From an uncultured bacterium (GTDB lineage: Bacteria > Bacteroidota > Bacteroidia > CAILMK01): a stretch of DNA of 64,000 nt. Under the pieces are notes generated by a model that was not told where the DNA came from, searched no databases, and saw only the letters and a program-made list of their open reading frames with translations. Below, in pieces: positions 29,338 to 47,144 of the stretch (position 1 is its first letter; the number at the start of each line of letters is the position of its first letter). Both the position numbers and the translations under genes were made by a program. The DNA lies in NCBI GenBank assembly GCA_903829945.1, contig CAIKRV010000011.1:14255-78254 (forward strand), given 5' to 3'.

Positions 29338-29917
29338 ATGATTCATCCGGATACCTATCTTAAAACAACAGCTAAAGGTTTAGGGATTTTTGCACAGCGC
29401 AATTTCAAAAAAAGGCGAGATACTATGGATTGCCGATAATATAGATGCTAAGATCCCCCTTCAAACTTATTTAGACTTAGACCCTTATCAACAATCAAAA
29501 CTAAATATTTACAGTTATCTGGATAATCAAAATAGAGTAATTGTTCCATGGGATGAAGGTAAATATGTCAATCATTCGTGCAATCCAAATTCCACGGCAC
29601 TTTTGCAATTTGACAATATTAGTATTGCTTTAAGGCCAATTCACAAAGACGAAGAAATAGTGGAAGATTACTATTCTTATTTTGGACATTTCGAAAGCTT
29701 TACGTGTAAATGCGGTGCAAAAAATTGCAGAGGGGAGGTAAAACAATTAAATTCCTTCCGACCGGCCTTGCGTTTGGATATCGCAGATATTGCCGAGCAA
29801 ATTTTAAGTCAACCGCAAACATTATTAGAAATAGACGGCGCTGAAATCAAAGAATTCAATCAACTTTTAGCTAAATTTGCTAAACAAAGAAACAGTATTT
29901 CTGTCCCTATATCATGA
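29338..29917 (+). pseudogene. SET-domain protein-lysine N-methyltransferase gene, frameshifted at an A7 tract (29407-29413).
   Basis: Frame 1 from the ATG at 29338 gives MIHPDTYLKTTAKGLGIFAQRNFKK and then stops at 29437. Frame 2 from 29390 continues ...KKGEILWIADNID...NHSCNPNS...FTCKCGAKNCRG (SET plus post-SET Cys cluster). A single A fewer in the homopolymer would restore one 192-aa ORF. Confidence 0.6.
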
Positions 29918-36326: not shown

Positions 36327-36372
36327 TTTCAGAGCGTTTCATAGACACTCTTTTTTATATAACTTTGTTGCT

Positions 36373-39081
36373 ATGCGTATAGGGATATTTTTTGGAGGTA
36401 AATCAAGAGAACGTGAAATTTCATTTGCAGGAGGCAGAACCGTATATGATTTATTGGATAAATCAGTATTCACTCCTATTCCCATTTTTGTAGATAGTTT
36501 AGGAAATTTTATTTTATTGGATTGGGAATATTTATATAAAGGAAGTATTCGTGATTTCTATCCACCCGTAAAGCATTTAGAAAAACAAGACGAAAACTTT
36601 CAGATCTATATTGAATCACTCTCCGACCTAAACATATCAAAGCAAGAAGAAATAATAGCAGAAGTTGGCAAAAAAATCAGTCCGGAAAACTTTAAGGATT
36701 ATTTTGATTTTGCTTTTTTGGCCTTACATGGGCCATATGGGGAAGATGGCAGTATTCAAGGCATCCTTGAATATTATAACATGCCGTACTCAGGATCGGG
36801 TGTCCTTCCTTCTGCTGTTGGCATCAATAAAGTTGTTCAAAAGCATTTCTTAAAAGAAATGGGAATAAAAGCAGCTGAATCCACCAGCGTGAAGCGAGAG
36901 CATTGGATGAGCGGCTCTGAAAATAAATTAAATTTTTTCAATTCCTTAAAATCACAATTTTTACTTCCTGTGGTTATAAAATCAAGTTCACAAGGTTCCT
37001 CCATCGGTGTGTCAATTTTGAAGGCATGGGATTTTGAGCAATTTGAAAATTTAATAAACCGCAGCTTCTTTCAGCAAACGGTAAGTAAAAGCGAATGGAT
37101 AGAGAAAAGTCCAGAACAAAAGAGAATATTTATTCAACAATTATGTGATATATATGAAGGCATAGGCGTTCCCCTTCAATGTATAGGTTTGGAAAATCAA
37201 ACTCCGATCATAAAACTTCCAGCCGTAGTATATCAAACCTTAGAAAAACATTTTGAGGACCATTCCAACGCTTTAACCCTAATAAGTCTTCAGACAGAAA
37301 GCGAAGTACTGGTTGAAGAATTTATAAGAGGAAAAGAATTTTCTTGTATCGTGGTGGAAGGAGAAAATGATGAACCTATAGCATTACCTCCTACAGGGAT
37401 TATTAAAAACGATGAAATATTTAATTATCGCGCCAAATACTTACCGGGCATTTCAAGAAAAGTAACCCCTATTGATTTGCCCGAACCGCAAATTGAACAA
37501 ATAATAAATGCATGTGAGCAATTATATCAGGCATTAAAATTTGATGTTTACGCAAGAATTGATGGTATGATTACTGAGGAAGGAGTTATTTATTTGAATG
37601 ATCCTAATACCACTTCAGGGATGCTTCCTTCGAGTTTCTTTTTTCATCAAGCTGCCGAAATTGGATTAAGTCCCTCACAATTCTTAAGTTTTATAATTTA
37701 TAAATCCGTAGCAAAAAGAATTGAACATACGCACCATGCATTCCCCTTGCTTGACTTACAAAAGAAGCTCCATGAAAAATTATTATTGAACACTGAATCT
37801 AATACTCATAAATTGAGAGTTGGGGTGGTGTTAGGGGGAATATCTACAGAAAGACATATTTCAGTAGAAAGCGGCAGAAATGTATTTGAAAAATTATCCT
37901 CCTCCGGAAAATATCAAGTATCTCCGATATTTTTGACACAGGAAGGAGAAGAAATTAGTCTTTTTTCACTGCCCATGAATTTATTACTTAAAGATAATGC
38001 TGACGATATTAGCGAAAAAGTAAAAAATTATCATAGTGCCCCTATTATAGACAAAATAATTACAAAGGCTGCTTTTATTAGTCATCATTTTACCTCGGGT
38101 AATTATGAATTTAAACCTAAATCCATTCCCATTGCCGAATTAAAAAACAACTTTGATTTTATATTTATAGGATTGCATGGAAGACCGGGAGAAGATGGCA
38201 CTTTACAAAAAAGTTTAGAACAATTAAATATTCCATATAATGGATCAGGTATTGACTCCTCCGGCATTACGATTAACAAATATCTGACCAATGAAATTTT
38301 ACATAGTCATGGTTTTTTAATTCCAAAACATTTTCTAATAAATAAGAGCGAATGGCTAGCAGATGCTTCCGCTTTATATACAAACATTGAAAGTCATCTT
38401 CCCTATCCTATTATTGCAAAACCTGCAGATGATGGCTGTTCTTCGGCAGTAAAGAAAATTAATTCCCGAGCGGAATTAGATGTTTTTACCAAAGCAATGT
38501 TTAGAAATGAAATTGAATTAAATAATACTTTACGAGATAGTTTGTCCTTATTAGGCAATGAAGAATTTCCTAAAAAAGATTTTTTTGTTGTGGAAGAATT
38601 GGTGGCCCCTGAAGGAGCAAAGCATTTTATTGAAATAACAGGAGGAATGCTTACAAGTTATGACGAAGAAGGTGCCATTAAATATGAATTATTTGAACCT
38701 TCTGAAGCCTTAGCTTCCAAGGGGATATTATCCTTAGAAGAAAAGTTTTTAGCAGGAGAAGGACAAAACATTACTCCGGCTCGTTTTTCCGGGCAAGCAG
38801 AAGAAAATAAAAGTATTTCTAAAATAGTAAGAGAAACTTTAGGGGCTGCAGCTAAGGTATTGAATATTGAAGGTTATTGTCGAATTGACGCCTTTGTGCG
38901 TATTTTTTCGAAAGATAAAGTTGAAGTAATTTTTATTGAAGTAAACTCACTACCGGGATTAACACCCGCAACATGTATTTTCCACCAAGCTGCATTGAAT
39001 GGTTATAAACCATTCCAATTCCTTGATCATATCATACAATATGGAATCGAAAAAGAAAACAGACGGAGCCCAAGAAGCTGA
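36373..39081 (+). CDS. Tandem (internally duplicated) D-alanine--D-alanine ligase family ATP-grasp protein, 902 aa.
   Basis: Module 1 carries MRIGIFFGGKSREREISFAGGR, LHGPYGEDGSIQGILE, VVIKSSSQGSSIGVS and YARIDGMITEEGVIYLNDPNTTSGM. Module 2 carries LRVGVVLGGISTERHISVESGR, LHGRPGEDGTLQKSLE, IIAKPADDGCSSAV and CRIDAFVRIFSKDKVEVIFIEVNSLPGL. Both have long insertions. Confidence 0.6.
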   Translation: MRIGIFFGGKSREREISFAGGRTVYDLLDKSVFTPIPIFVDSLGNFILLDWEYLYKGSIRDFYPPVKHLEKQDENFQIYIESLSDLNISKQEEIIAEVGKKISPENFKDYFDFAFLALHGPYGEDGSIQGILEYYNMPYSGSGVLPSAVGINKVVQKHFLKEMGIKAAESTSVKREHWMSGSENKLNFFNSLKSQFLLPVVIKSSSQGSSIGVSILKAWDFEQFENLINRSFFQQTVSKSEWIEKSPEQKRIFIQQLCDIYEGIGVPLQCIGLENQTPIIKLPAVVYQTLEKHFEDHSNALTLISLQTESEVLVEEFIRGKEFSCIVVEGENDEPIALPPTGIIKNDEIFNYRAKYLPGISRKVTPIDLPEPQIEQIINACEQLYQALKFDVYARIDGMITEEGVIYLNDPNTTSGMLPSSFFFHQAAEIGLSPSQFLSFIIYKSVAKRIEHTHHAFPLLDLQKKLHEKLLLNTESNTHKLRVGVVLGGISTERHISVESGRNVFEKLSSSGKYQVSPIFLTQEGEEISLFSLPMNLLLKDNADDISEKVKNYHSAPIIDKIITKAAFISHHFTSGNYEFKPKSIPIAELKNNFDFIFIGLHGRPGEDGTLQKSLEQLNIPYNGSGIDSSGITINKYLTNEILHSHGFLIPKHFLINKSEWLADASALYTNIESHLPYPIIAKPADDGCSSAVKKINSRAELDVFTKAMFRNEIELNNTLRDSLSLLGNEEFPKKDFFVVEELVAPEGAKHFIEITGGMLTSYDEEGAIKYELFEPSEALASKGILSLEEKFLAGEGQNITPARFSGQAEENKSISKIVRETLGAAAKVLNIEGYCRIDAFVRIFSKDKVEVIFIEVNSLPGLTPATCIFHQAALNGYKPFQFLDHIIQYGIEKENRRSPRS

Positions 39082-39853
39082 AAACAAAGCTTCCTTGAAT
39101 TGGAAAAAAATCCTCATTAACCTTGGCATCATGCTAGGGGTTTTTATTGTTATCTTAATTATTATTAATCGTTCCTTAAATTCCTATACCCATCATGGAG
39201 AATCATTGACGGTACCGGATTTAAAAGGTAGGAGCATGAGTGAAGTTGAATTGCTGTGTGCAGATAAAAAAGTAAGATATTATATAAAAGATTCTTCGTT
39301 TTCTCAGGGAGCTGCTCCTAATACCGTAATTGATCAAGATCCTAAACCGGGACAACATGTTAAAGAAAACCGCAGGATATATTTAACCATCAATGCAAAG
39401 TCAGCTCCTACGGTTAGATTAAATAATGTTATTGATAAATCCATGCGCCAGGCAAAAGCCGAATTAGAAAATAGCGGTTTTATTATTAATGAAGACATAG
39501 AATACAAGCCTTGTGATGAATTAAATTTGATTCTTGATATTAAATACAAAGGCGTATCCGTAAAGCCGGGTACCTTATTGAAAAAAGGCAGTAAACTTAC
39601 TATGGTAGTTTGTGATGGCGGCGCCAAAGGCAAAGCAGAGGTGCCTGACTTAGTAGGAAAATCTTTTGATGAAGCCATCATCTTAATAAACGCGAATGAT
39701 TTGGTATTAGGTAGCATTACAACAGATTCCGGAAAGGTAGTTGCTAAAACCAGTTCCAAATCAATTATTTATAAGCAAGATCCAGAAGCTGATGCCAAAA
39801 ATATACCTAAAGGCGAGGCAGTGAATATTTGGGTAAAGCGTAAGAAAAAATAA
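39041..39853 (+). CDS. PASTA-domain membrane protein (single N-terminal TM helix, three PASTA repeats).
   Basis: The TM helix is LINLGIMLGVFIVILIII. The PASTA units are TVPDLKGRSMSEVELLCADKKV..., VRLNNVIDKSMRQAKAELENSGF... and VPDLVGKSFDEAIILINANDL.... The ORF overlaps the 3' end of the Ddl-like gene; alternative starts are 38999 and 39128. Confidence 0.6.
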   Translation: MESKKKTDGAQEAENKASLNWKKILINLGIMLGVFIVILIIINRSLNSYTHHGESLTVPDLKGRSMSEVELLCADKKVRYYIKDSSFSQGAAPNTVIDQDPKPGQHVKENRRIYLTINAKSAPTVRLNNVIDKSMRQAKAELENSGFIINEDIEYKPCDELNLILDIKYKGVSVKPGTLLKKGSKLTMVVCDGGAKGKAEVPDLVGKSFDEAIILINANDLVLGSITTDSGKVVAKTSSKSIIYKQDPEADAKNIPKGEAVNIWVKRKKK

Positions 39854-39888
39854 AAAAAGGAGGTAAACTTCAGTTCACCCCCCTTATA
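39852..39888. terminator. Imperfect bidirectional terminator between the convergent PASTA and DUF4139 genes.
   Basis: A7-ggaggtaaac-ttcag-ttcacccccc. The stem has one or two mismatches, with T-runs on both transcript orientations. Confidence 0.3.
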
Positions 39889-44569: not shown

Positions 44570-45040
44570 ATGCAAAAGTATTTTATATTAACCGCACTCC
44601 TCTTTATTATTTCAGCTTTTAAAGCCGGAAATGATCGTCCGGTACATTGGCGATTTGATGCTAAAAAAACAGCACAAAACGAGTATGACCTTATTTTTAC
44701 TGCTAAAATAGATAAGAATTGGCATATATATTCTCAATTTTTAGAAAGTGACGAAGGACCGATTAAGACCAGTTTTAGCTTTAAAACTGATAACGCTTTC
44801 ACTTTAAAAGAAAAAGTAAAAGAAATCAGTAAGGCAATTACAGAAGAGGATAAAAGCTTCAATATGAAACTTACTTTTTTTGAAAATGAAGCCATATTTG
44901 TGCAGCATGTTATTATAAATGCGCCTTTAAAAACTATCAAAGGAACCTTGAACTATATGTGCTGCGATAATAATCATTGTTTAGCGCCCGAAGATGTAGA
45001 ATTTAATTTTAATGTTACCTATGAAACGAACAAGAAATAA
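44570..45040 (+). CDS. Stand-alone DsbD N-terminal (alpha) domain paralog, secreted.
   Basis: Signal peptide followed by PVHWRFDAKKTAQNEYDLIFTAKIDKNWHIYSQ and YMCCDNNHCLAPEDVEFNF. These align with the N-terminus of the downstream DsbD (PVKWQFASKQTAPNEFDLIFTATIGSEWHMYSQ ... FMVCRNGACLPPKDVDFNF). Confidence 0.55.
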   Translation: MQKYFILTALLFIISAFKAGNDRPVHWRFDAKKTAQNEYDLIFTAKIDKNWHIYSQFLESDEGPIKTSFSFKTDNAFTLKEKVKEISKAITEEDKSFNMKLTFFENEAIFVQHVIINAPLKTIKGTLNYMCCDNNHCLAPEDVEFNFNVTYETNKK

Positions 45041-47144
45041 GTTCATCATTTATAAATATTTTACCATTTTGCTGGTGTTGCTTTCGGTAGCTAATAGCAA
45101 AGCAGATGTATTAGACCCCGTAAAATGGCAGTTTGCCAGTAAACAAACTGCCCCTAATGAATTTGATTTAATATTTACTGCAACCATTGGGTCAGAATGG
45201 CATATGTATTCCCAGTTTTCTGATCAATCAAATGATGCGCCGGTTAATTTAAGTTTTACCTTTAAACCTGGTGCGTACACTACTGTTGGGAATGTAAAAG
45301 AAATAAGCAAAGTAATAGTAGAATTTGATAAAGTAGTAGGTCATGATTTAAAATTCTTTAAAGGCAAGGCTGAATTTATTCAACATGTAAAAATAAATGC
45401 CAAGCAAACGAATATTGCAGGAACTTTAAATTTCATGGTTTGCAGGAATGGAGCATGCCTTCCACCCAAAGATGTTGATTTTAATTTTGCACTAAACAAT
45501 AATTCTTCTACTAGTGCCGCTACAGCACCAATTGTTACCGCACCGGAAAATACCATGCCGGATAAATCCAATGTAGAGCAAGATAAAAATGATACCCTTT
45601 CCGCAGATAAAACAAGAAAAGTAAAAAGCGAAGAAAAAATTGACGCTCCTAAATTTAATACCGTTGCTGATGGGAATATTTCTAAACTCAGTTTATGGAA
45701 AATATTTTTTCTTGGGCTGGTCAGCGGATTCGTAGCATTACTTACCCCATGTGTTTTTCCAATGATTCCATTAACTGTAAGTTTCTTTACCAAGAAGAAA
45801 AAGAGTAAAACGGAAGGCATTCAAAAAGCAATACTTTTTGGGATTTCCATCATTGTTATTTATGTAGCTCTAGGTTTATTAATCACTTTAATTTTTGGAT
45901 CAAATACTTTAAATAGTATTTCCAGCAATGCCTGGGTTAATCTGGGATTCTTTGTTATTTTTCTAGTATTTGCAATTTCTTTTTTAGGTGCCTTCGAAAT
46001 AAACTTGCCATCATCCTGGACCAATAATTCAGATAAGATGTCAGAGCGAAGTGGATTTGTGGGAATTTTCTTTATGGCATTTACCTTAGCACTGGTTTCC
46101 TTTAGTTGTACCGGTCCTGTGGTTGGTCAATTATTAGTACTTACAGGTAATGGTGGAAGTTTTGCAGGTCCAATAGTAGGGATGACCGGATTTTCATTTG
46201 CCATGGCATTGCCATTTACCATATTTGCAGCATTCCCTACCCTAATGCATAATTTACCACGCTCCGGCGGATGGTTAAATTCAGTAAAGGTTACTTTAGG
46301 CTTTATAGAACTCGCTTTAGCCTTGAAATTTTTATCAGCTGCTGATTTAATTAATGATTGGGGTTTATTAAAACGTGAATACTTTCTGGCGCTTTGGATT
46401 GTTATATTCTTCCTTTTAGGTTTATATTTACTAGGTAAATTAATGTTTAGCCATGATACGGCTACTCATCATATTTCTGTGACACGTCTTTTATTAGCCA
46501 TAGTAGCATTTGCTTTTACAGCCTACATGATTCCGGGACTATGGGGCGCTCCGGTAAATATTCTAAGCGGCATTGCACCGCCTAATGAATATAATGAAGG
46601 GCCATGGATAAATAATTCATTAAATGCAGGCATAGCACAAAATAATACGGAGACTTCAAAAACTAAAACCAAAAAGTACGAGGCTTATTTTAAAAATAAA
46701 ACCCCACTGGGATTAGATGCTTATTATGATTATCAAGAAGCATTAGCGGAGGCCAGACGAGTGAAAAAACCTTTAATGATTGATTTTACCGGGATTGTTT
46801 GTACCAATTGCAGGAAAATGGAAAACACCATATGGGCCAATCCGGGGATATTAAAAAGATTGAAAGAAAATGTAGTTTTAGTTTCGCTTTTTATGGATGA
46901 TAAACACCAATTAGATTCCAATGAAGTGTATATATCTAAACGTTCTTCTCAAAAAATAACGACTATTGGAGATAAATGGAATGATTTTGCTGCTACCGTT
47001 TTTAATTCCAATTCAGAGCCATATTATATCCTCCTTGATCAGAATGAAAAGCTATTGGTAGAGCCTATGGGATATGATCCGGATCCTAGCAAATTTGCCA
47101 ATTTCCTTGATAATGGAAAAACAGAATATCAGCATAGACAATAA
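45012..47144 (+). CDS. dsbD: Thiol:disulfide interchange protein DsbD (alpha domain, CcdA-like TM core, C-terminal thioredoxin).
   Basis: The alpha-domain Cys pair is in FMVCRNGAC. The TM core carries LLTPCVFPMIPL and SFSCTGPVVG. The C-terminal thioredoxin has FTGIVCTNCRKME. The length is 710 aa and the real start may be the Met at 45021. Confidence 0.8.
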   Translation: MLPMKRTRNKFIIYKYFTILLVLLSVANSKADVLDPVKWQFASKQTAPNEFDLIFTATIGSEWHMYSQFSDQSNDAPVNLSFTFKPGAYTTVGNVKEISKVIVEFDKVVGHDLKFFKGKAEFIQHVKINAKQTNIAGTLNFMVCRNGACLPPKDVDFNFALNNNSSTSAATAPIVTAPENTMPDKSNVEQDKNDTLSADKTRKVKSEEKIDAPKFNTVADGNISKLSLWKIFFLGLVSGFVALLTPCVFPMIPLTVSFFTKKKKSKTEGIQKAILFGISIIVIYVALGLLITLIFGSNTLNSISSNAWVNLGFFVIFLVFAISFLGAFEINLPSSWTNNSDKMSERSGFVGIFFMAFTLALVSFSCTGPVVGQLLVLTGNGGSFAGPIVGMTGFSFAMALPFTIFAAFPTLMHNLPRSGGWLNSVKVTLGFIELALALKFLSAADLINDWGLLKREYFLALWIVIFFLLGLYLLGKLMFSHDTATHHISVTRLLLAIVAFAFTAYMIPGLWGAPVNILSGIAPPNEYNEGPWINNSLNAGIAQNNTETSKTKTKKYEAYFKNKTPLGLDAYYDYQEALAEARRVKKPLMIDFTGIVCTNCRKMENTIWANPGILKRLKENVVLVSLFMDDKHQLDSNEVYISKRSSQKITTIGDKWNDFAATVFNSNSEPYYILLDQNEKLLVEPMGYDPDPSKFANFLDNGKTEYQHRQ

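What the first reader, a model, noticed from the sequence alone, without database searches (positions are those of the whole stretch)
36373..39853. A 902-aa protein with two complete D-Ala-D-Ala ligase modules, overlapped by a PASTA-domain membrane protein gene
Both halves of 36373..39081 independently carry the full Ddl motif set (GG-S-E-SG N-terminus, LHGxxGEDGxxQ, KPxxxGSSxG, and the E...N C-terminal Mg site). This is an internal gene duplication and fusion, roughly three times the normal Ddl length, with large insertions in each half. The next ORF starts inside its 3' end and encodes a single-pass membrane protein with three PASTA repeats, a peptidoglycan/muropeptide-binding module. A duplicated cell-wall precursor ligase co-transcribed with a PASTA sensor-like protein suggests a specialised peptidoglycan-precursor pathway or sensing pathway rather than the housekeeping ddl.
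Basis: partly seen in the sequence, partly recalled or inferred. Interest (0 to 1): 0.5.

Follow-up and report, generated by a model that had tools for sequence, protein, structure and literature searches.

The report
Two-module D-Ala ligase paired with PASTA

Summary
ORF 36373..39081 encodes 902 aa with two complete Ddl modules. The next gene (start 39041, 41-nt overlap) encodes a single-pass membrane protein with three PASTA repeats.

It is not a one-off. About 900-aa homologues occur in many Cytophagales and Chitinophagales/Saprospiraceae-like genomes, and compact versions occur in Patescibacteria.

Across all of them, module 1 keeps the canonical DdlB active site, with an invariant E270→D. 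Module 2 keeps every ATP, Mg and catalytic residue but always has C, F and T at the S150, Y216 and S281 positions. Y216F is the classic change that turns a dipeptide ligase into a depsipeptide ligase.

A split form exists (two genes plus PASTA). Full fusions also exist (tandem Ddl–TM–PASTA), some catalytically intact and some degenerate.

In related genomes an ordinary single ddl occupies the same slot upstream of the PASTA gene, so the tandem gene sits in the housekeeping position.

The AlphaFold model is confident (pLDDT 91.9, pTM 0.91). No tandem Ddl is in the PDB, and I found no paper on it.

Function of module 2 and of the PASTA link is inferred, not shown. Whether a second, canonical ddl exists elsewhere in these genomes could not be tested.

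The parts
36373..39081 (+). Tandem (two-module) D-alanine--D-alanine ligase family gene, 902 aa
   Evidence: ORF. Pfam Ddl N and C domains twice. More than 119 full-length homologues at 54-74% identity. AlphaFold pLDDT 91.9, pTM 0.91.
36373..37728 (+). Module 1 (residues 1-452): canonical Ddl active-site signature E15/H63/E68/K97/K144/S150/S151/E180/E187/K215/Y216/R255/D257/N272/G276/S281, with an invariant E270->D (D410, nt 37600-37602)
   Evidence: Residue mapping against authentic E. coli DdlB. The same signature is present in all tandem representatives down to about 30% identity.
37036..37287 (+). Lineage-specific insertion of about 80 aa in the central domain of module 1 (residues about 222-305), predicted as a small alpha/beta sub-domain
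   Evidence: Gap opposite DdlB. Secondary structure H221-231, E234-237, H247-257, E268-271, H283-296. Absent from the 700-830-aa tandem classes, whose module 1 is about 360 aa.
37672..37800 (+). Inter-module linker: two long helices (residues 434-476). The split-gene form breaks at about residue 480, just after this linker.
   Evidence: DSSP H434-452 and H456-475. The module-1 protein of L092 ends at query residue about 480.
37804..39066 (+). Module 2 (residues 478-898): all ATP, Mg and catalytic residues kept (E493, H602, E607, K636, K683, S690, E741, E754, K791, R837, D839, E856, N858, G862). Invariant changes at the second-substrate/triad positions: S150->C689 (nt 38437-38439), Y216->F792 (nt 38746-38748), S281->T867, L282->C868 (C/V/A in the family).
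   Evidence: None of 25 canonical single Ddls has these changes.
39041..39853 (+). PASTA membrane protein gene, 270 aa from the ATG at 39041 (an upstream in-frame ATG at 38999 would give 284 aa)
   Evidence: Pfam PASTA 1.5e-30, three stretches. Public gene call P0121 is 270 aa. The closest homologues start MESKKK.
39041..39081 (+). 41-nt overlap of the ddl 3' end and the PASTA gene 5' end, in different frames
   Evidence: Sequence read directly. Similar abutting or overlapping junctions occur in Marivirga L003 (11-nt overlap) and in the split form L092 (4-nt overlap).
39110..39166 (+). Single transmembrane helix (ILINLGIMLGVFIVILIII), preceded by a Lys-rich 23-aa cytoplasmic tail
   Evidence: Kyte-Doolittle 19-residue window score 3.16. 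The topology (tail inside, PASTA repeats outside) is inferred from the positive-inside rule.
39206..39841 (+). Three PASTA repeats, predicted to be periplasmic
   Evidence: Pfam PF03793, 3 stretches, best at residues 71-132 of the 284-aa reading. Repeat boundaries were read from the sequence.
39856..39885 (.). 13-bp-stem hairpin with a T-run between the convergent PASTA and DUF4139 genes; terminator-like
   Evidence: This is a consensus scan only, and the number of terminator-like sites in the region is at chance level.
36360..36367 (+). TAACTTTG, a match to the Bacteroidota -7 promoter motif TAnnTTTG, ending 5 nt before the ddl ATG
   Evidence: The motif count in the window is not above chance (109 against 100.8 expected), so this is only a lead.

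Best explanation
**What it is.** The 902-aa ORF belongs to an old, widespread and uncharacterised sub-family of D-Ala-D-Ala ligases. The enzyme is built from two different Ddl modules that always occur together and in the same order. They may be two adjacent genes, one fused chain (as here), or a chain further fused to a PASTA protein.

**How the ligase most likely works.** Canonical Ddl is a homodimer. By inference the two modules form the equivalent pair as a covalent hetero-dimer.
- Module 1 has the canonical D-Ala:D-Ala active site and most likely supplies D-Ala-D-Ala for MurF. This makes the gene the occupant of the housekeeping ddl slot in the conserved Bacteroidota ddl-PASTA gene pair.
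- Module 2 is most likely also a working ATP-grasp ligase site, because every ATP, Mg, phosphoryl-transfer and oxyanion residue is invariant.
- Module 2's hydrogen-bond triad, which sets the identity of the second substrate, is remodelled (E-C-F instead of E-S-Y). I infer a relaxed or different nucleophile specificity: D-lactate-type depsipeptide or another D-Ala-D-X product.

**The PASTA partner.** It has a short cytoplasmic tail, one TM helix and three periplasmic PASTA repeats. It is co-expressed with the ligase (41-nt overlap) and is a functional partner. In some lineages it is the C-terminal part of the same polypeptide, giving cytoplasmic ligase / TM / periplasmic PASTA, the same layout as PASTA kinases. 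The most likely role is to tether or tune precursor synthesis according to the state of periplasmic peptidoglycan.

**Shown:** the architecture, the residue patterns, the synteny, the split and fused forms, and the fold.
**Inferred:** the hetero-dimer packing, catalysis by both modules, the altered specificity, and any signalling or tethering by PASTA.
For: - Both modules are bona fide Ddl by HMM, by sequence alignment to solved structures and by fold.
- In 119 close homologues and about 90 representatives down to about 30% identity, the signatures are fixed. Module 1 is EHEKKSSEEKYRD-D-NGS-F. Module 2 is EHEKK-C-SE.EK-F-RDENG-T-[CVA].
- All 25 canonical single Ddls examined have EHEKKSSEEKYRDENGS[ILMF]. 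The numbering was validated against MG1655 DdlB.
- Y216F alone converts DdlB into a depsipeptide ligase, and the Y216-E15-S150 triad controls specificity (PMC3378904, citing Park, Lin & Walsh 1996).
- A split form has the two modules as separate genes with a 138-nt gap carrying stops in all frames. It is identical in three samples.
- pTM 0.91 over the whole 902 aa indicates a fixed arrangement of the two modules.
- Synteny: tandem ddl-PASTA in Pontibacter, Marivirga, Cytophaga, Adhaeribacter, Rhodocytophaga and many MAGs. A single ddl sits in the same slot, with the same downstream genes, in Cyclobacteriaceae and others. In total 56 of 80 PASTA loci have a ddl within 6 kb.
- Fusions tandem-Ddl/one TM/PASTA occur in more than 10 independent 50%-identity clusters. 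Some are catalytically intact (P0243, P0244, P0256, P0391). The Haliscomenobacter fusion recurs on several assemblies.
- No other ddl is in the 64-kb window, and no van-type genes lie nearby.
Against: - No biochemical evidence exists for either module.
- Module 1 has Asp in place of the Mg-bridging Glu270. The effect of this change is unknown.
- Module 2 does not reach any curated D-Ala-D-Lac or D-Ala-D-Ser model (94.6 against 550 bits).
- Each module alone is below the curated Ddl sub-family cut-offs (212 and 158 against 243-262 bits).
- I could not inspect model coordinates, so the dimer-like packing is untested.
- The cytoplasmic tails of unfused PASTA proteins are short and unconserved, which gives no obvious handle for binding the ligase.
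- The compact tandem classes, including those from Patescibacteria, are not next to a PASTA gene.
- In several fusion lineages both modules have lost their catalytic residues. Those genomes must carry another ddl, so a tandem protein can co-exist with a canonical ddl.
- I could not search whole genomes for a second ddl.
Confidence: 0.55

Rival explanations
1. Module 2 is a non-catalytic partner, a regulatory or structural pseudo-subunit. It may still bind ATP and/or D-Ala but makes no product. The tandem enzyme would then be a one-site Ddl with a built-in allosteric or stabilising subunit.
For: - The specificity triad is broken (C and F at the S150 and Y216 positions).
- Module 2 scores lower against Ddl models than module 1 (158 against 211 bits for NF002378).
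- Whole lineages tolerate loss of the catalytic residues while keeping the fold and the PASTA fusion. The scaffold therefore has some value beyond catalysis.
Against: - Pseudo-enzymes normally lose catalytic residues. Here K215, R255, D257, E270, N272 and G276, and all ATP ligands of module 2, are invariant from Bacteroidota to Patescibacteria.
- Where degeneration occurs, it hits both modules at once and not module 2 alone.
- Y216F DdlB remains an active ligase.
Confidence: 0.22
2. One reading: the tandem ligase is an accessory, specialised enzyme for an alternative precursor or a sensing pathway. It would work alongside a normal ddl encoded elsewhere in the genome.
For: - Both modules are highly diverged from canonical Ddl. 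Singles group together with 100% bootstrap to the exclusion of both halves.
- Genomes with degenerate fusions must carry another ddl.
- Module 2 has a non-canonical second-substrate site.
Against: - The tandem gene sits exactly where an ordinary single ddl sits in related genomes, with the same PASTA / Por_Secre_tail / M50 / HAD neighbours.
- Module 1 has a complete canonical D-Ala:D-Ala signature.
- No second ddl is in the window.
- No vanH/vanX/vanRS-like genes lie nearby.
- The same family occurs in Patescibacteria. Their genomes are small (from general knowledge), which makes redundant ligases less likely.
Confidence: 0.2
3. The ddl-PASTA adjacency is only conserved gene order, and the two proteins have no direct functional relationship.
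For: - Unfused PASTA proteins have almost no cytoplasmic part.
- In Spirosomaceae the PASTA gene has no ddl within 6 kb, and in Bacteroidales the ddl is 1-3 kb downstream rather than adjacent.
- The compact tandem classes lack a PASTA neighbour.
Against: - More than 10 independent clusters of fusion proteins join the tandem ligase to TM plus PASTA.
- Three different kinds of ddl (DdlA-like, DdlB-like, tandem) are all found immediately upstream of the PASTA gene in different families, while every other neighbour changes.
- Overlapping or abutting reading frames are seen in several lineages.
Confidence: 0.1
4. Artefact: two adjacent ddl genes wrongly joined by an assembly or sequencing error.
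For: A genuine two-gene form exists in one lineage.
Against: - The reading frame is uninterrupted for 902 codons.
- The same length and architecture occur in more than 100 independent genomes, including complete chromosomes of cultured species.
- The helical linker is modelled with confidence.
Confidence: 0.01

Closest known systems
Canonical D-alanine--D-alanine ligases (E. coli DdlB and DdlA; EC 6.3.2.4; ATP-grasp)
   Same: Same three-domain fold in each module. The same ATP, Mg and catalytic residues are present. Module 1 has the same E15-S150-Y216 triad. The gene occupies the same genomic slot as single ddl genes in related Bacteroidota.
   Different: - Two different modules in one chain (902 aa against 306-364 aa).
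- Each module is only 23-30% identical to canonical enzymes and falls below the curated sub-family cut-offs on its own.
- Module 1 has Asp for Glu270. Module 2 has Cys, Phe and Thr at positions 150, 216 and 281.
- There are extra insertions.
Depsipeptide-forming Ddl of intrinsically vancomycin-resistant lactic acid bacteria (Leuconostoc LmDdl2, Lactobacillus Ddl) and the DdlB Y216F mutant
   Same: Phe at the Y216-equivalent position of the omega loop in module 2. This breaks the triad hydrogen bond that favours D-Ala as the second substrate.
   Different: - Those enzymes are single-module homodimers with Ser at the S150 position.
- Module 2 has Cys there and does not reach D-Ala-D-Lac HMM cut-offs.
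- The host is a Gram-negative Bacteroidota, and there is no evidence for D-Lac-ending precursors.
PASTA Ser/Thr kinases (PknB, Stk1, PrkC) and PASTA-bearing class B PBPs (PBP2x)
   Same: The partner gene, and the fused forms in other lineages, have one TM helix followed by extracytoplasmic PASTA repeats. In the fusions a cytoplasmic enzyme is joined through a single TM helix to PASTA repeats, as in PknB.
   Different: - There is no kinase or transpeptidase domain (NF033483 90.8 against 450 bits, PASTA region only).
- The cytoplasmic module is a peptidoglycan-precursor ligase.
- The hosts are Bacteroidota rather than Firmicutes or Actinobacteria.
- In this window the two parts are separate, overlapping genes.
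Carbamoyl-phosphate synthetase large subunit (CarB), from established knowledge
   Same: An ATP-grasp enzyme that arose by internal duplication and has two homologous modules in one chain. Both modules kept catalytic residues but specialised in different partial reactions.
   Different: Different reaction and family. For the tandem Ddl, division of labour between the modules is only inferred.
MurC-Ddl bifunctional fusion of Chlamydiae (NCBIfam NF011171)
   Same: A naturally fused Ddl in a long multi-domain cell-wall precursor enzyme.
   Different: That protein joins Ddl to a Mur ligase, not to a second Ddl. The window protein scores 190 against a cut-off of 1015 bits. Some pipelines nevertheless label tandem Ddls 'UDP-N-acetylmuramate--alanine ligase'.

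Membership tests
D-alanine--D-alanine ligase family (Pfam PF01820 + PF07478, ATP-grasp) | N-terminal and C-terminal Ddl domains above Pfam gathering scores | tested here: met
   Both halves separately. N domains 89.1 and 83.2 bits (cut-off 34.6). C domains 115.4 and 65.9 bits (cut-off 24)..
D-alanine--D-alanine ligase family (Pfam PF01820 + PF07478, ATP-grasp) | ATP, Mg and catalytic residues (DdlB K97, K144, E180, E187, K215, R255, D257, E270, N272, G276) | tested here: met
   Module 2 has all of them. Module 1 has all except an invariant, conservative E270->D. Conserved in 119 close and about 90 distant homologues. The E187 equivalent in module 2 was assigned by eye (E754, EIT~EFT) after MAFFT misplaced that segment.
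D-alanine--D-alanine ligase family (Pfam PF01820 + PF07478, ATP-grasp) | Three-domain Ddl fold | tested here: met
   AlphaFold pLDDT 91.9. The top 50 Foldseek hits listed are all Ddl, VanA, VanG or LmDdl2 structures, with TM-score to target 0.74-0.89.
Canonical D-Ala:D-Ala-specific Ddl (NCBIfam sub-family and equivalog models) | Score above the curated cut-off | tested here: not met
   The whole protein passes the sub-family models only as the sum of two modules (361.8 against 243). Each module alone fails (212/210.8 and 150.6/158.2 against 262/243). No equivalog model is reached..
Canonical D-Ala:D-Ala-specific Ddl (NCBIfam sub-family and equivalog models) | E15-S150-Y216 hydrogen-bond triad | tested here: inconclusive
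   Met in module 1 (E15, S209, Y356). Not met in module 2 (E493, C689, F792)..
Canonical D-Ala:D-Ala-specific Ddl (NCBIfam sub-family and equivalog models) | D-Ala-D-Ala synthesis activity and homodimeric assembly | not testable with these tools
   Needs enzyme assays and a multimer or experimental structure.
D-Ala--D-Lac ligases (VanA type, NF000206; LmDdl2 type) | Score above the curated D_ala_D_lac cut-off | tested here: not met
   87.4 bits (module 1) and 94.6 bits (module 2) against a cut-off of 550.
D-Ala--D-Lac ligases (VanA type, NF000206; LmDdl2 type) | Phe (LmDdl2 type) replacing Tyr216 in the omega loop | tested here: met
   Module 2 has F792, invariant in the family. The role of this residue is documented in PMC3378904.
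D-Ala--D-Lac ligases (VanA type, NF000206; LmDdl2 type) | Companion genes (vanH-type dehydrogenase, vanX dipeptidase, vanRS) | tested here: not met
   The nine flanking genes are Rieske, MBOAT, GatA, SLT/LysM, ChaN-like, DUF4139, M16 peptidase and two DsbD-family genes. The rest of the genome was not available.
PASTA-domain proteins (PF03793) | PASTA repeats above gathering score, following a TM helix | tested here: met
   105.4 bits against 23.2, with 3 stretches. One TM helix at residues 24-42 of the 270-aa protein.
PASTA Ser/Thr kinases (NF033483) and PASTA PBPs | Kinase or transpeptidase catalytic domain on the same polypeptide | tested here: not met
   NF033483 scores 90.8 against a cut-off of 450, and only profile positions 312-562 (the PASTA part) are matched. 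There is no other Pfam domain.
Tandem-Ddl/TM/PASTA fusion proteins (defined here) | Ligase modules, TM helix and PASTA repeats in one reading frame | tested here: not met
   In the window these are two ORFs in different frames with a 41-nt overlap. Fused forms are found elsewhere.

The most novel reading that the evidence does not exclude
The tandem Ddl is an obligate hetero-dimeric ligase with a division of labour. Module 1 makes D-Ala-D-Ala. Module 2 makes a different D-Ala-D-X dipeptide or depsipeptide, or acts as a substrate-sensing regulatory site. Together with its PASTA partner it forms a previously unrecognised trans-membrane feedback device. Periplasmic PASTA repeats would read the state of peptidoglycan or lipid II and directly position or tune the cytoplasmic enzyme that supplies the stem-peptide terminus. 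That would be a PASTA sensor whose output is a precursor ligase rather than a kinase.
Probability: 0.15. Interest if true: 0.85.

Novelty: new variant of a known kind. Interest (0 to 1): 0.6.

Why it matters
Ddl is an essential, heavily studied antibiotic target (D-cycloserine; vancomycin resistance). It has been treated as a roughly 300-360-aa homodimer.

A conserved sub-family is built from two non-equivalent modules, one of which carries the signature known to switch the enzyme towards depsipeptides. If both sites work, some large environmental groups (Cytophagales, Saprospiraceae-like Bacteroidota, Patescibacteria) may make more than one kind of stem-peptide terminus, or may regulate precursor supply in an unknown way.

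The operon link and natural fusions to a PASTA membrane protein would extend PASTA biology beyond kinases and PBPs, and beyond Gram-positive bacteria. They also give a directly testable hypothesis for the function of the orphan PASTA protein that is widespread in Bacteroidota.

Genetic systems exist in Cytophaga and Flavobacterium relatives, and a barcoded transposon library exists for Pontibacter actiniarum, so the ideas can be tested.

Tried and rejected
1. **Fusion of a DdlA-type with a DdlB-type enzyme.** BLAST scores suggested it: half 1 scores better against the ~357-aa singles and half 2 against the ~325-aa singles. The NJ tree rejected it. All canonical singles, including E. coli DdlA and DdlB, form one group with 100% bootstrap that excludes both halves. 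Long-branch attraction remains a caveat.
2. **Analogy of F792 to VanC/VanG D-Ser ligases.** Dropped. The VanG alignment shows Tyr at the Y216-equivalent position, and I found no citable source.
3. **Stand-alone module-2 protein P0293.** It turned out to be a contig-end fragment.
4. **Looking for a second ddl in tandem-bearing genomes.** Not possible. Essential-gene supplements for Pontibacter actiniarum are not held. Only the 64-kb window could be searched, and it has no other ddl.
5. **AlphaFold-database fold search for named full-length relatives.** The library was unavailable.
6. **Literature searches.** Searches for tandem Ddl, Ddl-PASTA, or a PASTA protein in Bacteroidota found nothing relevant.
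7. **Promoter and terminator scans.** At chance level and not informative for Bacteroidota. Rfam found no RNA family in the window.
8. **First phylogeny attempts.** I re-ran with a faster distance method.

Full report
**1. The observation**

The window has an uninterrupted 902-codon ORF at 36373..39081 on the + strand. It is followed by an ORF ending at 39853 that begins inside the 3' end of the first.
- Pfam finds the Ddl N-terminal and C-terminal domains in each half when the halves are scanned separately, all well above gathering scores.
- Pfam also finds three PASTA repeats in the downstream protein.
- phmmer against PDB sequences aligns each half to solved Ddl enzymes across the N, central and C domains.
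- tblastn of both halves and of E. coli DdlB against the window finds no further ddl in the 64 kb. It also shows the halves are only about 25% identical to each other.

The PASTA gene most likely starts at the second ATG (39041). The public gene call is 270 aa, and the two closest homologues begin with the same MESKKK. The overlap with ddl is then 41 nt.

**2. How common the architecture is**

A word-indexed search returned at least 120 full-length homologues of 889-916 aa at 53-74% identity. Many come from cultured Cytophagales: numerous Pontibacter species, Adhaeribacter, Botryobacter, Marivirga, Rapidithrix and 'Flammeovirgaceae bacterium 311'. They are annotated simply as D-alanine--D-alanine ligase (family protein).

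An exhaustive HMMER scan of 1.84 billion cluster representatives found 482 representatives with E <= 1e-30. Among the best 150, the tandem proteins fall into size classes of about 705-755, 780-830 and 860-950 aa, and a further class of about 1100-1340 aa.

The ~800-aa class includes proteins from Patescibacteria.

**3. Active sites**

I mapped E. coli DdlB functional residues onto both halves. The DdlB sequence I used is identical to the MG1655 annotation.

Across 119 close homologues:
- Both halves are invariant at the equivalents of E15 (one of the 119 has Gln here in module 1), H63, E68, K97, K144, S151, E180, K215, R255, D257, N272 and G276.
- Module 1 also keeps S150, Y216 and S281. It has an invariant Asp for E270.
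- Module 2 keeps E270 but invariantly has Cys for S150, Phe for Y216, Thr for S281, and Cys/Val for L282 (Ala also occurs in more distant relatives).

MAFFT misplaced the E180/E187 segment of module 2. By inspection and from the predicted strands, E741 and E754 (EIT ~ EFT) are the equivalents. Both are invariant or nearly so.

The same two signatures hold in every tandem representative of 700-950 aa, down to about 30% identity, including the Patescibacteria class. None of 25 canonical single Ddls has them; those were DdlA-like and DdlB-like enzymes from Bacteroidota plus E. coli DdlA and DdlB.

The Y216-E15-S150 triad is documented to set dipeptide against depsipeptide specificity. Y216F alone gives DdlB depsipeptide ligase activity, and the reverse change in Lactobacillus reuteri Ddl was reported to give a vancomycin-sensitive strain (PMC3378904, citing Park, Lin & Walsh 1996 and Park & Walsh 1997).

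So neither half is a degenerate domain, and they are not equivalent. Module 1 looks like a normal D-Ala:D-Ala site. Module 2 looks like an active site with a remodelled second-substrate pocket.

**4. Structure**

AlphaFold2 with a 76-sequence alignment gives mean pLDDT 91.9 and pTM 0.91 for the full chain.
- Two long helices (434-475) join the modules.
- The lowest confidence falls in the two omega-loop regions.
- Foldseek against the PDB returns only Ddl-family enzymes of 360 residues or fewer (including VanA, VanG and LmDdl2), each covering one module. TM-score to target is 0.74-0.89.
- No tandem Ddl has been solved.

I could not access coordinates. Packing of the two modules like a canonical Ddl homodimer is therefore an inference from the high pTM and from established knowledge that Ddl enzymes are dimers.

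**5. Split and fused forms**

On contigs from three metagenome samples the two modules are separate genes: 477 aa and 425 aa, 138 nt apart, with stops in all frames. They are followed by a PASTA gene, and both signatures are intact.

At the other extreme, the ~1100-1340-aa class is tandem Ddl + PASTA in one polypeptide. There is exactly one predicted TM helix between them. It is followed by the same YT(N/R)HGES motif that opens the periplasmic part of the window's PASTA protein.
- Some fusions keep all catalytic residues (P0243, P0244, P0256, P0391).
- Others have lost most of them in both modules. One example is the 1205-aa protein of Haliscomenobacter, which recurs in several assemblies.
- The Haliscomenobacter fusion sits in the same synteny, with a rhodanese gene downstream, and has no canonical ddl within 8 kb.

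**6. Genomic context**

In the window the neighbours are ordinary: Rieske, MBOAT, GatA amidase, an SLT/LysM lytic transglycosylase, a ChaN-like protein, then ddl and PASTA. A convergent DUF4139/4140 gene follows, then an M16 peptidase and DsbD. No van-type genes are present.

I used the PASTA protein as a probe on one genome per species and retrieved 80 named loci. I classified the ddl near each:

| ddl near the PASTA gene | Loci |
|---|---|
| Tandem ddl upstream, same strand | 19 |
| Single ddl directly upstream | 21 |
| Single ddl 4 kb upstream | 1 |
| Single ddl 1-3 kb downstream (mostly Bacteroidales and Prolixibacteraceae) | 9 |
| Single ddl divergent upstream | 6 |
| None within the flank held (for example Spirosomaceae) | 24 |

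- Tandem ddl is found in Pontibacter, Adhaeribacter, Rhodocytophaga, Cytophaga, Marivirga and several Chitinophagales/Bacteroidota MAGs.
- Single ddl is found in Cyclobacteriaceae, Fulvivirga, Roseivirgaceae, Flammeovirgaceae MAGs and some Chitinophagales.
- The single enzymes directly upstream are of two kinds, DdlB-like (~320 aa) and DdlA-like (~357 aa).
- In a Cyclobacteriaceae chromosome the order is single ddl, PASTA, Por_Secre_tail protein..., M50 peptidase, HAD. This matches the Pontibacter order with the tandem gene.

The ddl-PASTA pairing is thus a Bacteroidota feature older than, or independent of, the tandem form. The tandem gene occupies the slot of the ordinary ddl.

The compact tandem classes are not PASTA-linked.

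**7. Origin**

A neighbour-joining tree was built on 324 columns with 100 bootstraps.
- All canonical singles group together with 100% support.
- Module-2 sequences group with 77% support and module-1 sequences with 41%.
- Neither module is nested within the DdlA-like or DdlB-like enzymes.

This fits an old duplication followed by divergence. It does not support a fusion of DdlA with DdlB. Long-branch effects cannot be excluded.

**8. Interpretation**

Best explanation (confidence about 0.55): a hetero-dimeric, here covalently fused, Ddl.
- Module 1 supplies D-Ala-D-Ala.
- Module 2 is a second ATP-grasp site with altered nucleophile specificity.
- The enzyme is co-expressed with, and functionally tied to, a PASTA membrane protein.

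The main rivals are a non-catalytic module 2 (0.22), an accessory enzyme alongside a canonical ddl elsewhere (0.20), and adjacency without functional meaning (0.10). These three address different sub-claims of the best explanation (module 2, housekeeping role, PASTA link), so they are not exclusive of one another and the figures are not meant to sum to 1 with it.

What is shown: the architecture, the residue patterns, the fold, the distribution, the synteny, and the split and fused forms. What is inferred: the catalysis, the product, the packing and the PASTA coupling.

**9. Novelty**

Searches of the paper library found no description of a tandem Ddl, a Ddl-PASTA pair or fusion, or the Bacteroidota PASTA protein. 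No curated NCBIfam model is specific for it.

The genes are in public databases under generic names, and sometimes wrong ones such as 'UDP-N-acetylmuramate--alanine ligase'.

I rate it a new variant of a known kind, interest 0.6. The enzyme family is classical. The two-site architecture with a fixed depsipeptide-type signature, and the PASTA linkage, would surprise a cell-wall specialist and can be tested directly.

Noticed in passing
L089 8001-11618 (Haliscomenobacter sp. MAG); also P0290, P0292, P0299, P0302, P0304, P0308, P0386, P0336: PASTA fusion proteins in which both Ddl modules have lost most catalytic residues while the homology and the TM-PASTA part are kept. These look like pseudo-enzyme 'receiver' domains on a PASTA membrane protein. 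Those genomes must carry a functional ddl elsewhere.
   Followed up: partly
L092 5001-8671 (also L093, L094): Unfused form: a module-1 gene (477 aa), a 138-nt non-coding gap, a module-2 gene (425 aa), then the PASTA gene with a 4-nt overlap. The DNA is identical in three metagenome samples.
   Followed up: yes
P0400, P0401 (Patescibacteria group bacterium); L096 2189-4564: Compact (~800-aa) tandem Ddls with the same two active-site signatures occur in candidate-phyla-radiation bacteria. They have no PASTA neighbour.
   Followed up: partly
L005, L018, L085 against L008, L013, L022, L056 against L021, L034, L049, L054: Within Cytophagales the slot immediately upstream of the PASTA gene holds three different kinds of ddl in different families: DdlB-like ~320 aa, DdlA-like ~357 aa, and tandem ~900 aa. 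This suggests repeated in-place replacement while the pairing is preserved.
   Followed up: partly
P0025 (1111 aa): A tandem Ddl homologue carrying extra DUF559 (PF04480) and PF18741 domains, and covering only 58% of the query. It may be a mobile endonuclease-like insertion inside the ligase gene.
   Followed up: no
name column (P0003, P0006, P0009, P0014, others): JGI annotation labels several tandem Ddls 'UDP-N-acetylmuramate--alanine ligase'. This is probably a mis-transfer from the chlamydial MurC-Ddl fusion.
   Followed up: no
L001 8310-10441, L003 13484-15397, L004 7082-10024, L005 6922-8895, L089 11697-12002: A Por_Secre_tail (type IX secretion substrate) protein, and often a small rhodanese gene, recur just downstream of the PASTA gene in many genomes. 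They are absent at this position in the window, where a convergent DUF4139/4140 gene follows.
   Followed up: no
window 39856-39885: A 13-bp-stem hairpin with flanking T/A runs lies in the 49-nt gap between the convergent PASTA and DUF4139 genes. It may be a bidirectional terminator.
   Followed up: no
window 36360-36367: TAACTTTG, a match to the Bacteroidota -7 promoter motif, ends 5 nt before the ddl ATG. Similar matches precede the genes starting at 29914, 30436 and 41743. Overall the motif count is at chance level.
   Followed up: partly
window 44570-45040 and 45012-47144: Two overlapping DsbD-family genes: a stand-alone DsbD_N domain protein, followed by a full DsbD (DsbD_N + TM + thioredoxin-like).
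   Followed up: no
window 36943-36945 (residue 191 of the ligase): The public protein P0001 reads Val (NSVKSQ) where the window encodes Leu (NSLKSQ). The window is therefore a near-identical variant of the deposited contig, not the same sequence.
   Followed up: no
L095 1-667 and 8277-11964: The 754-aa minimal tandem Ddl (P0301) lies on a 1.1-Mb contig next to ankyrin-repeat and large WD40 beta-propeller proteins. The organism was not identified.
   Followed up: no
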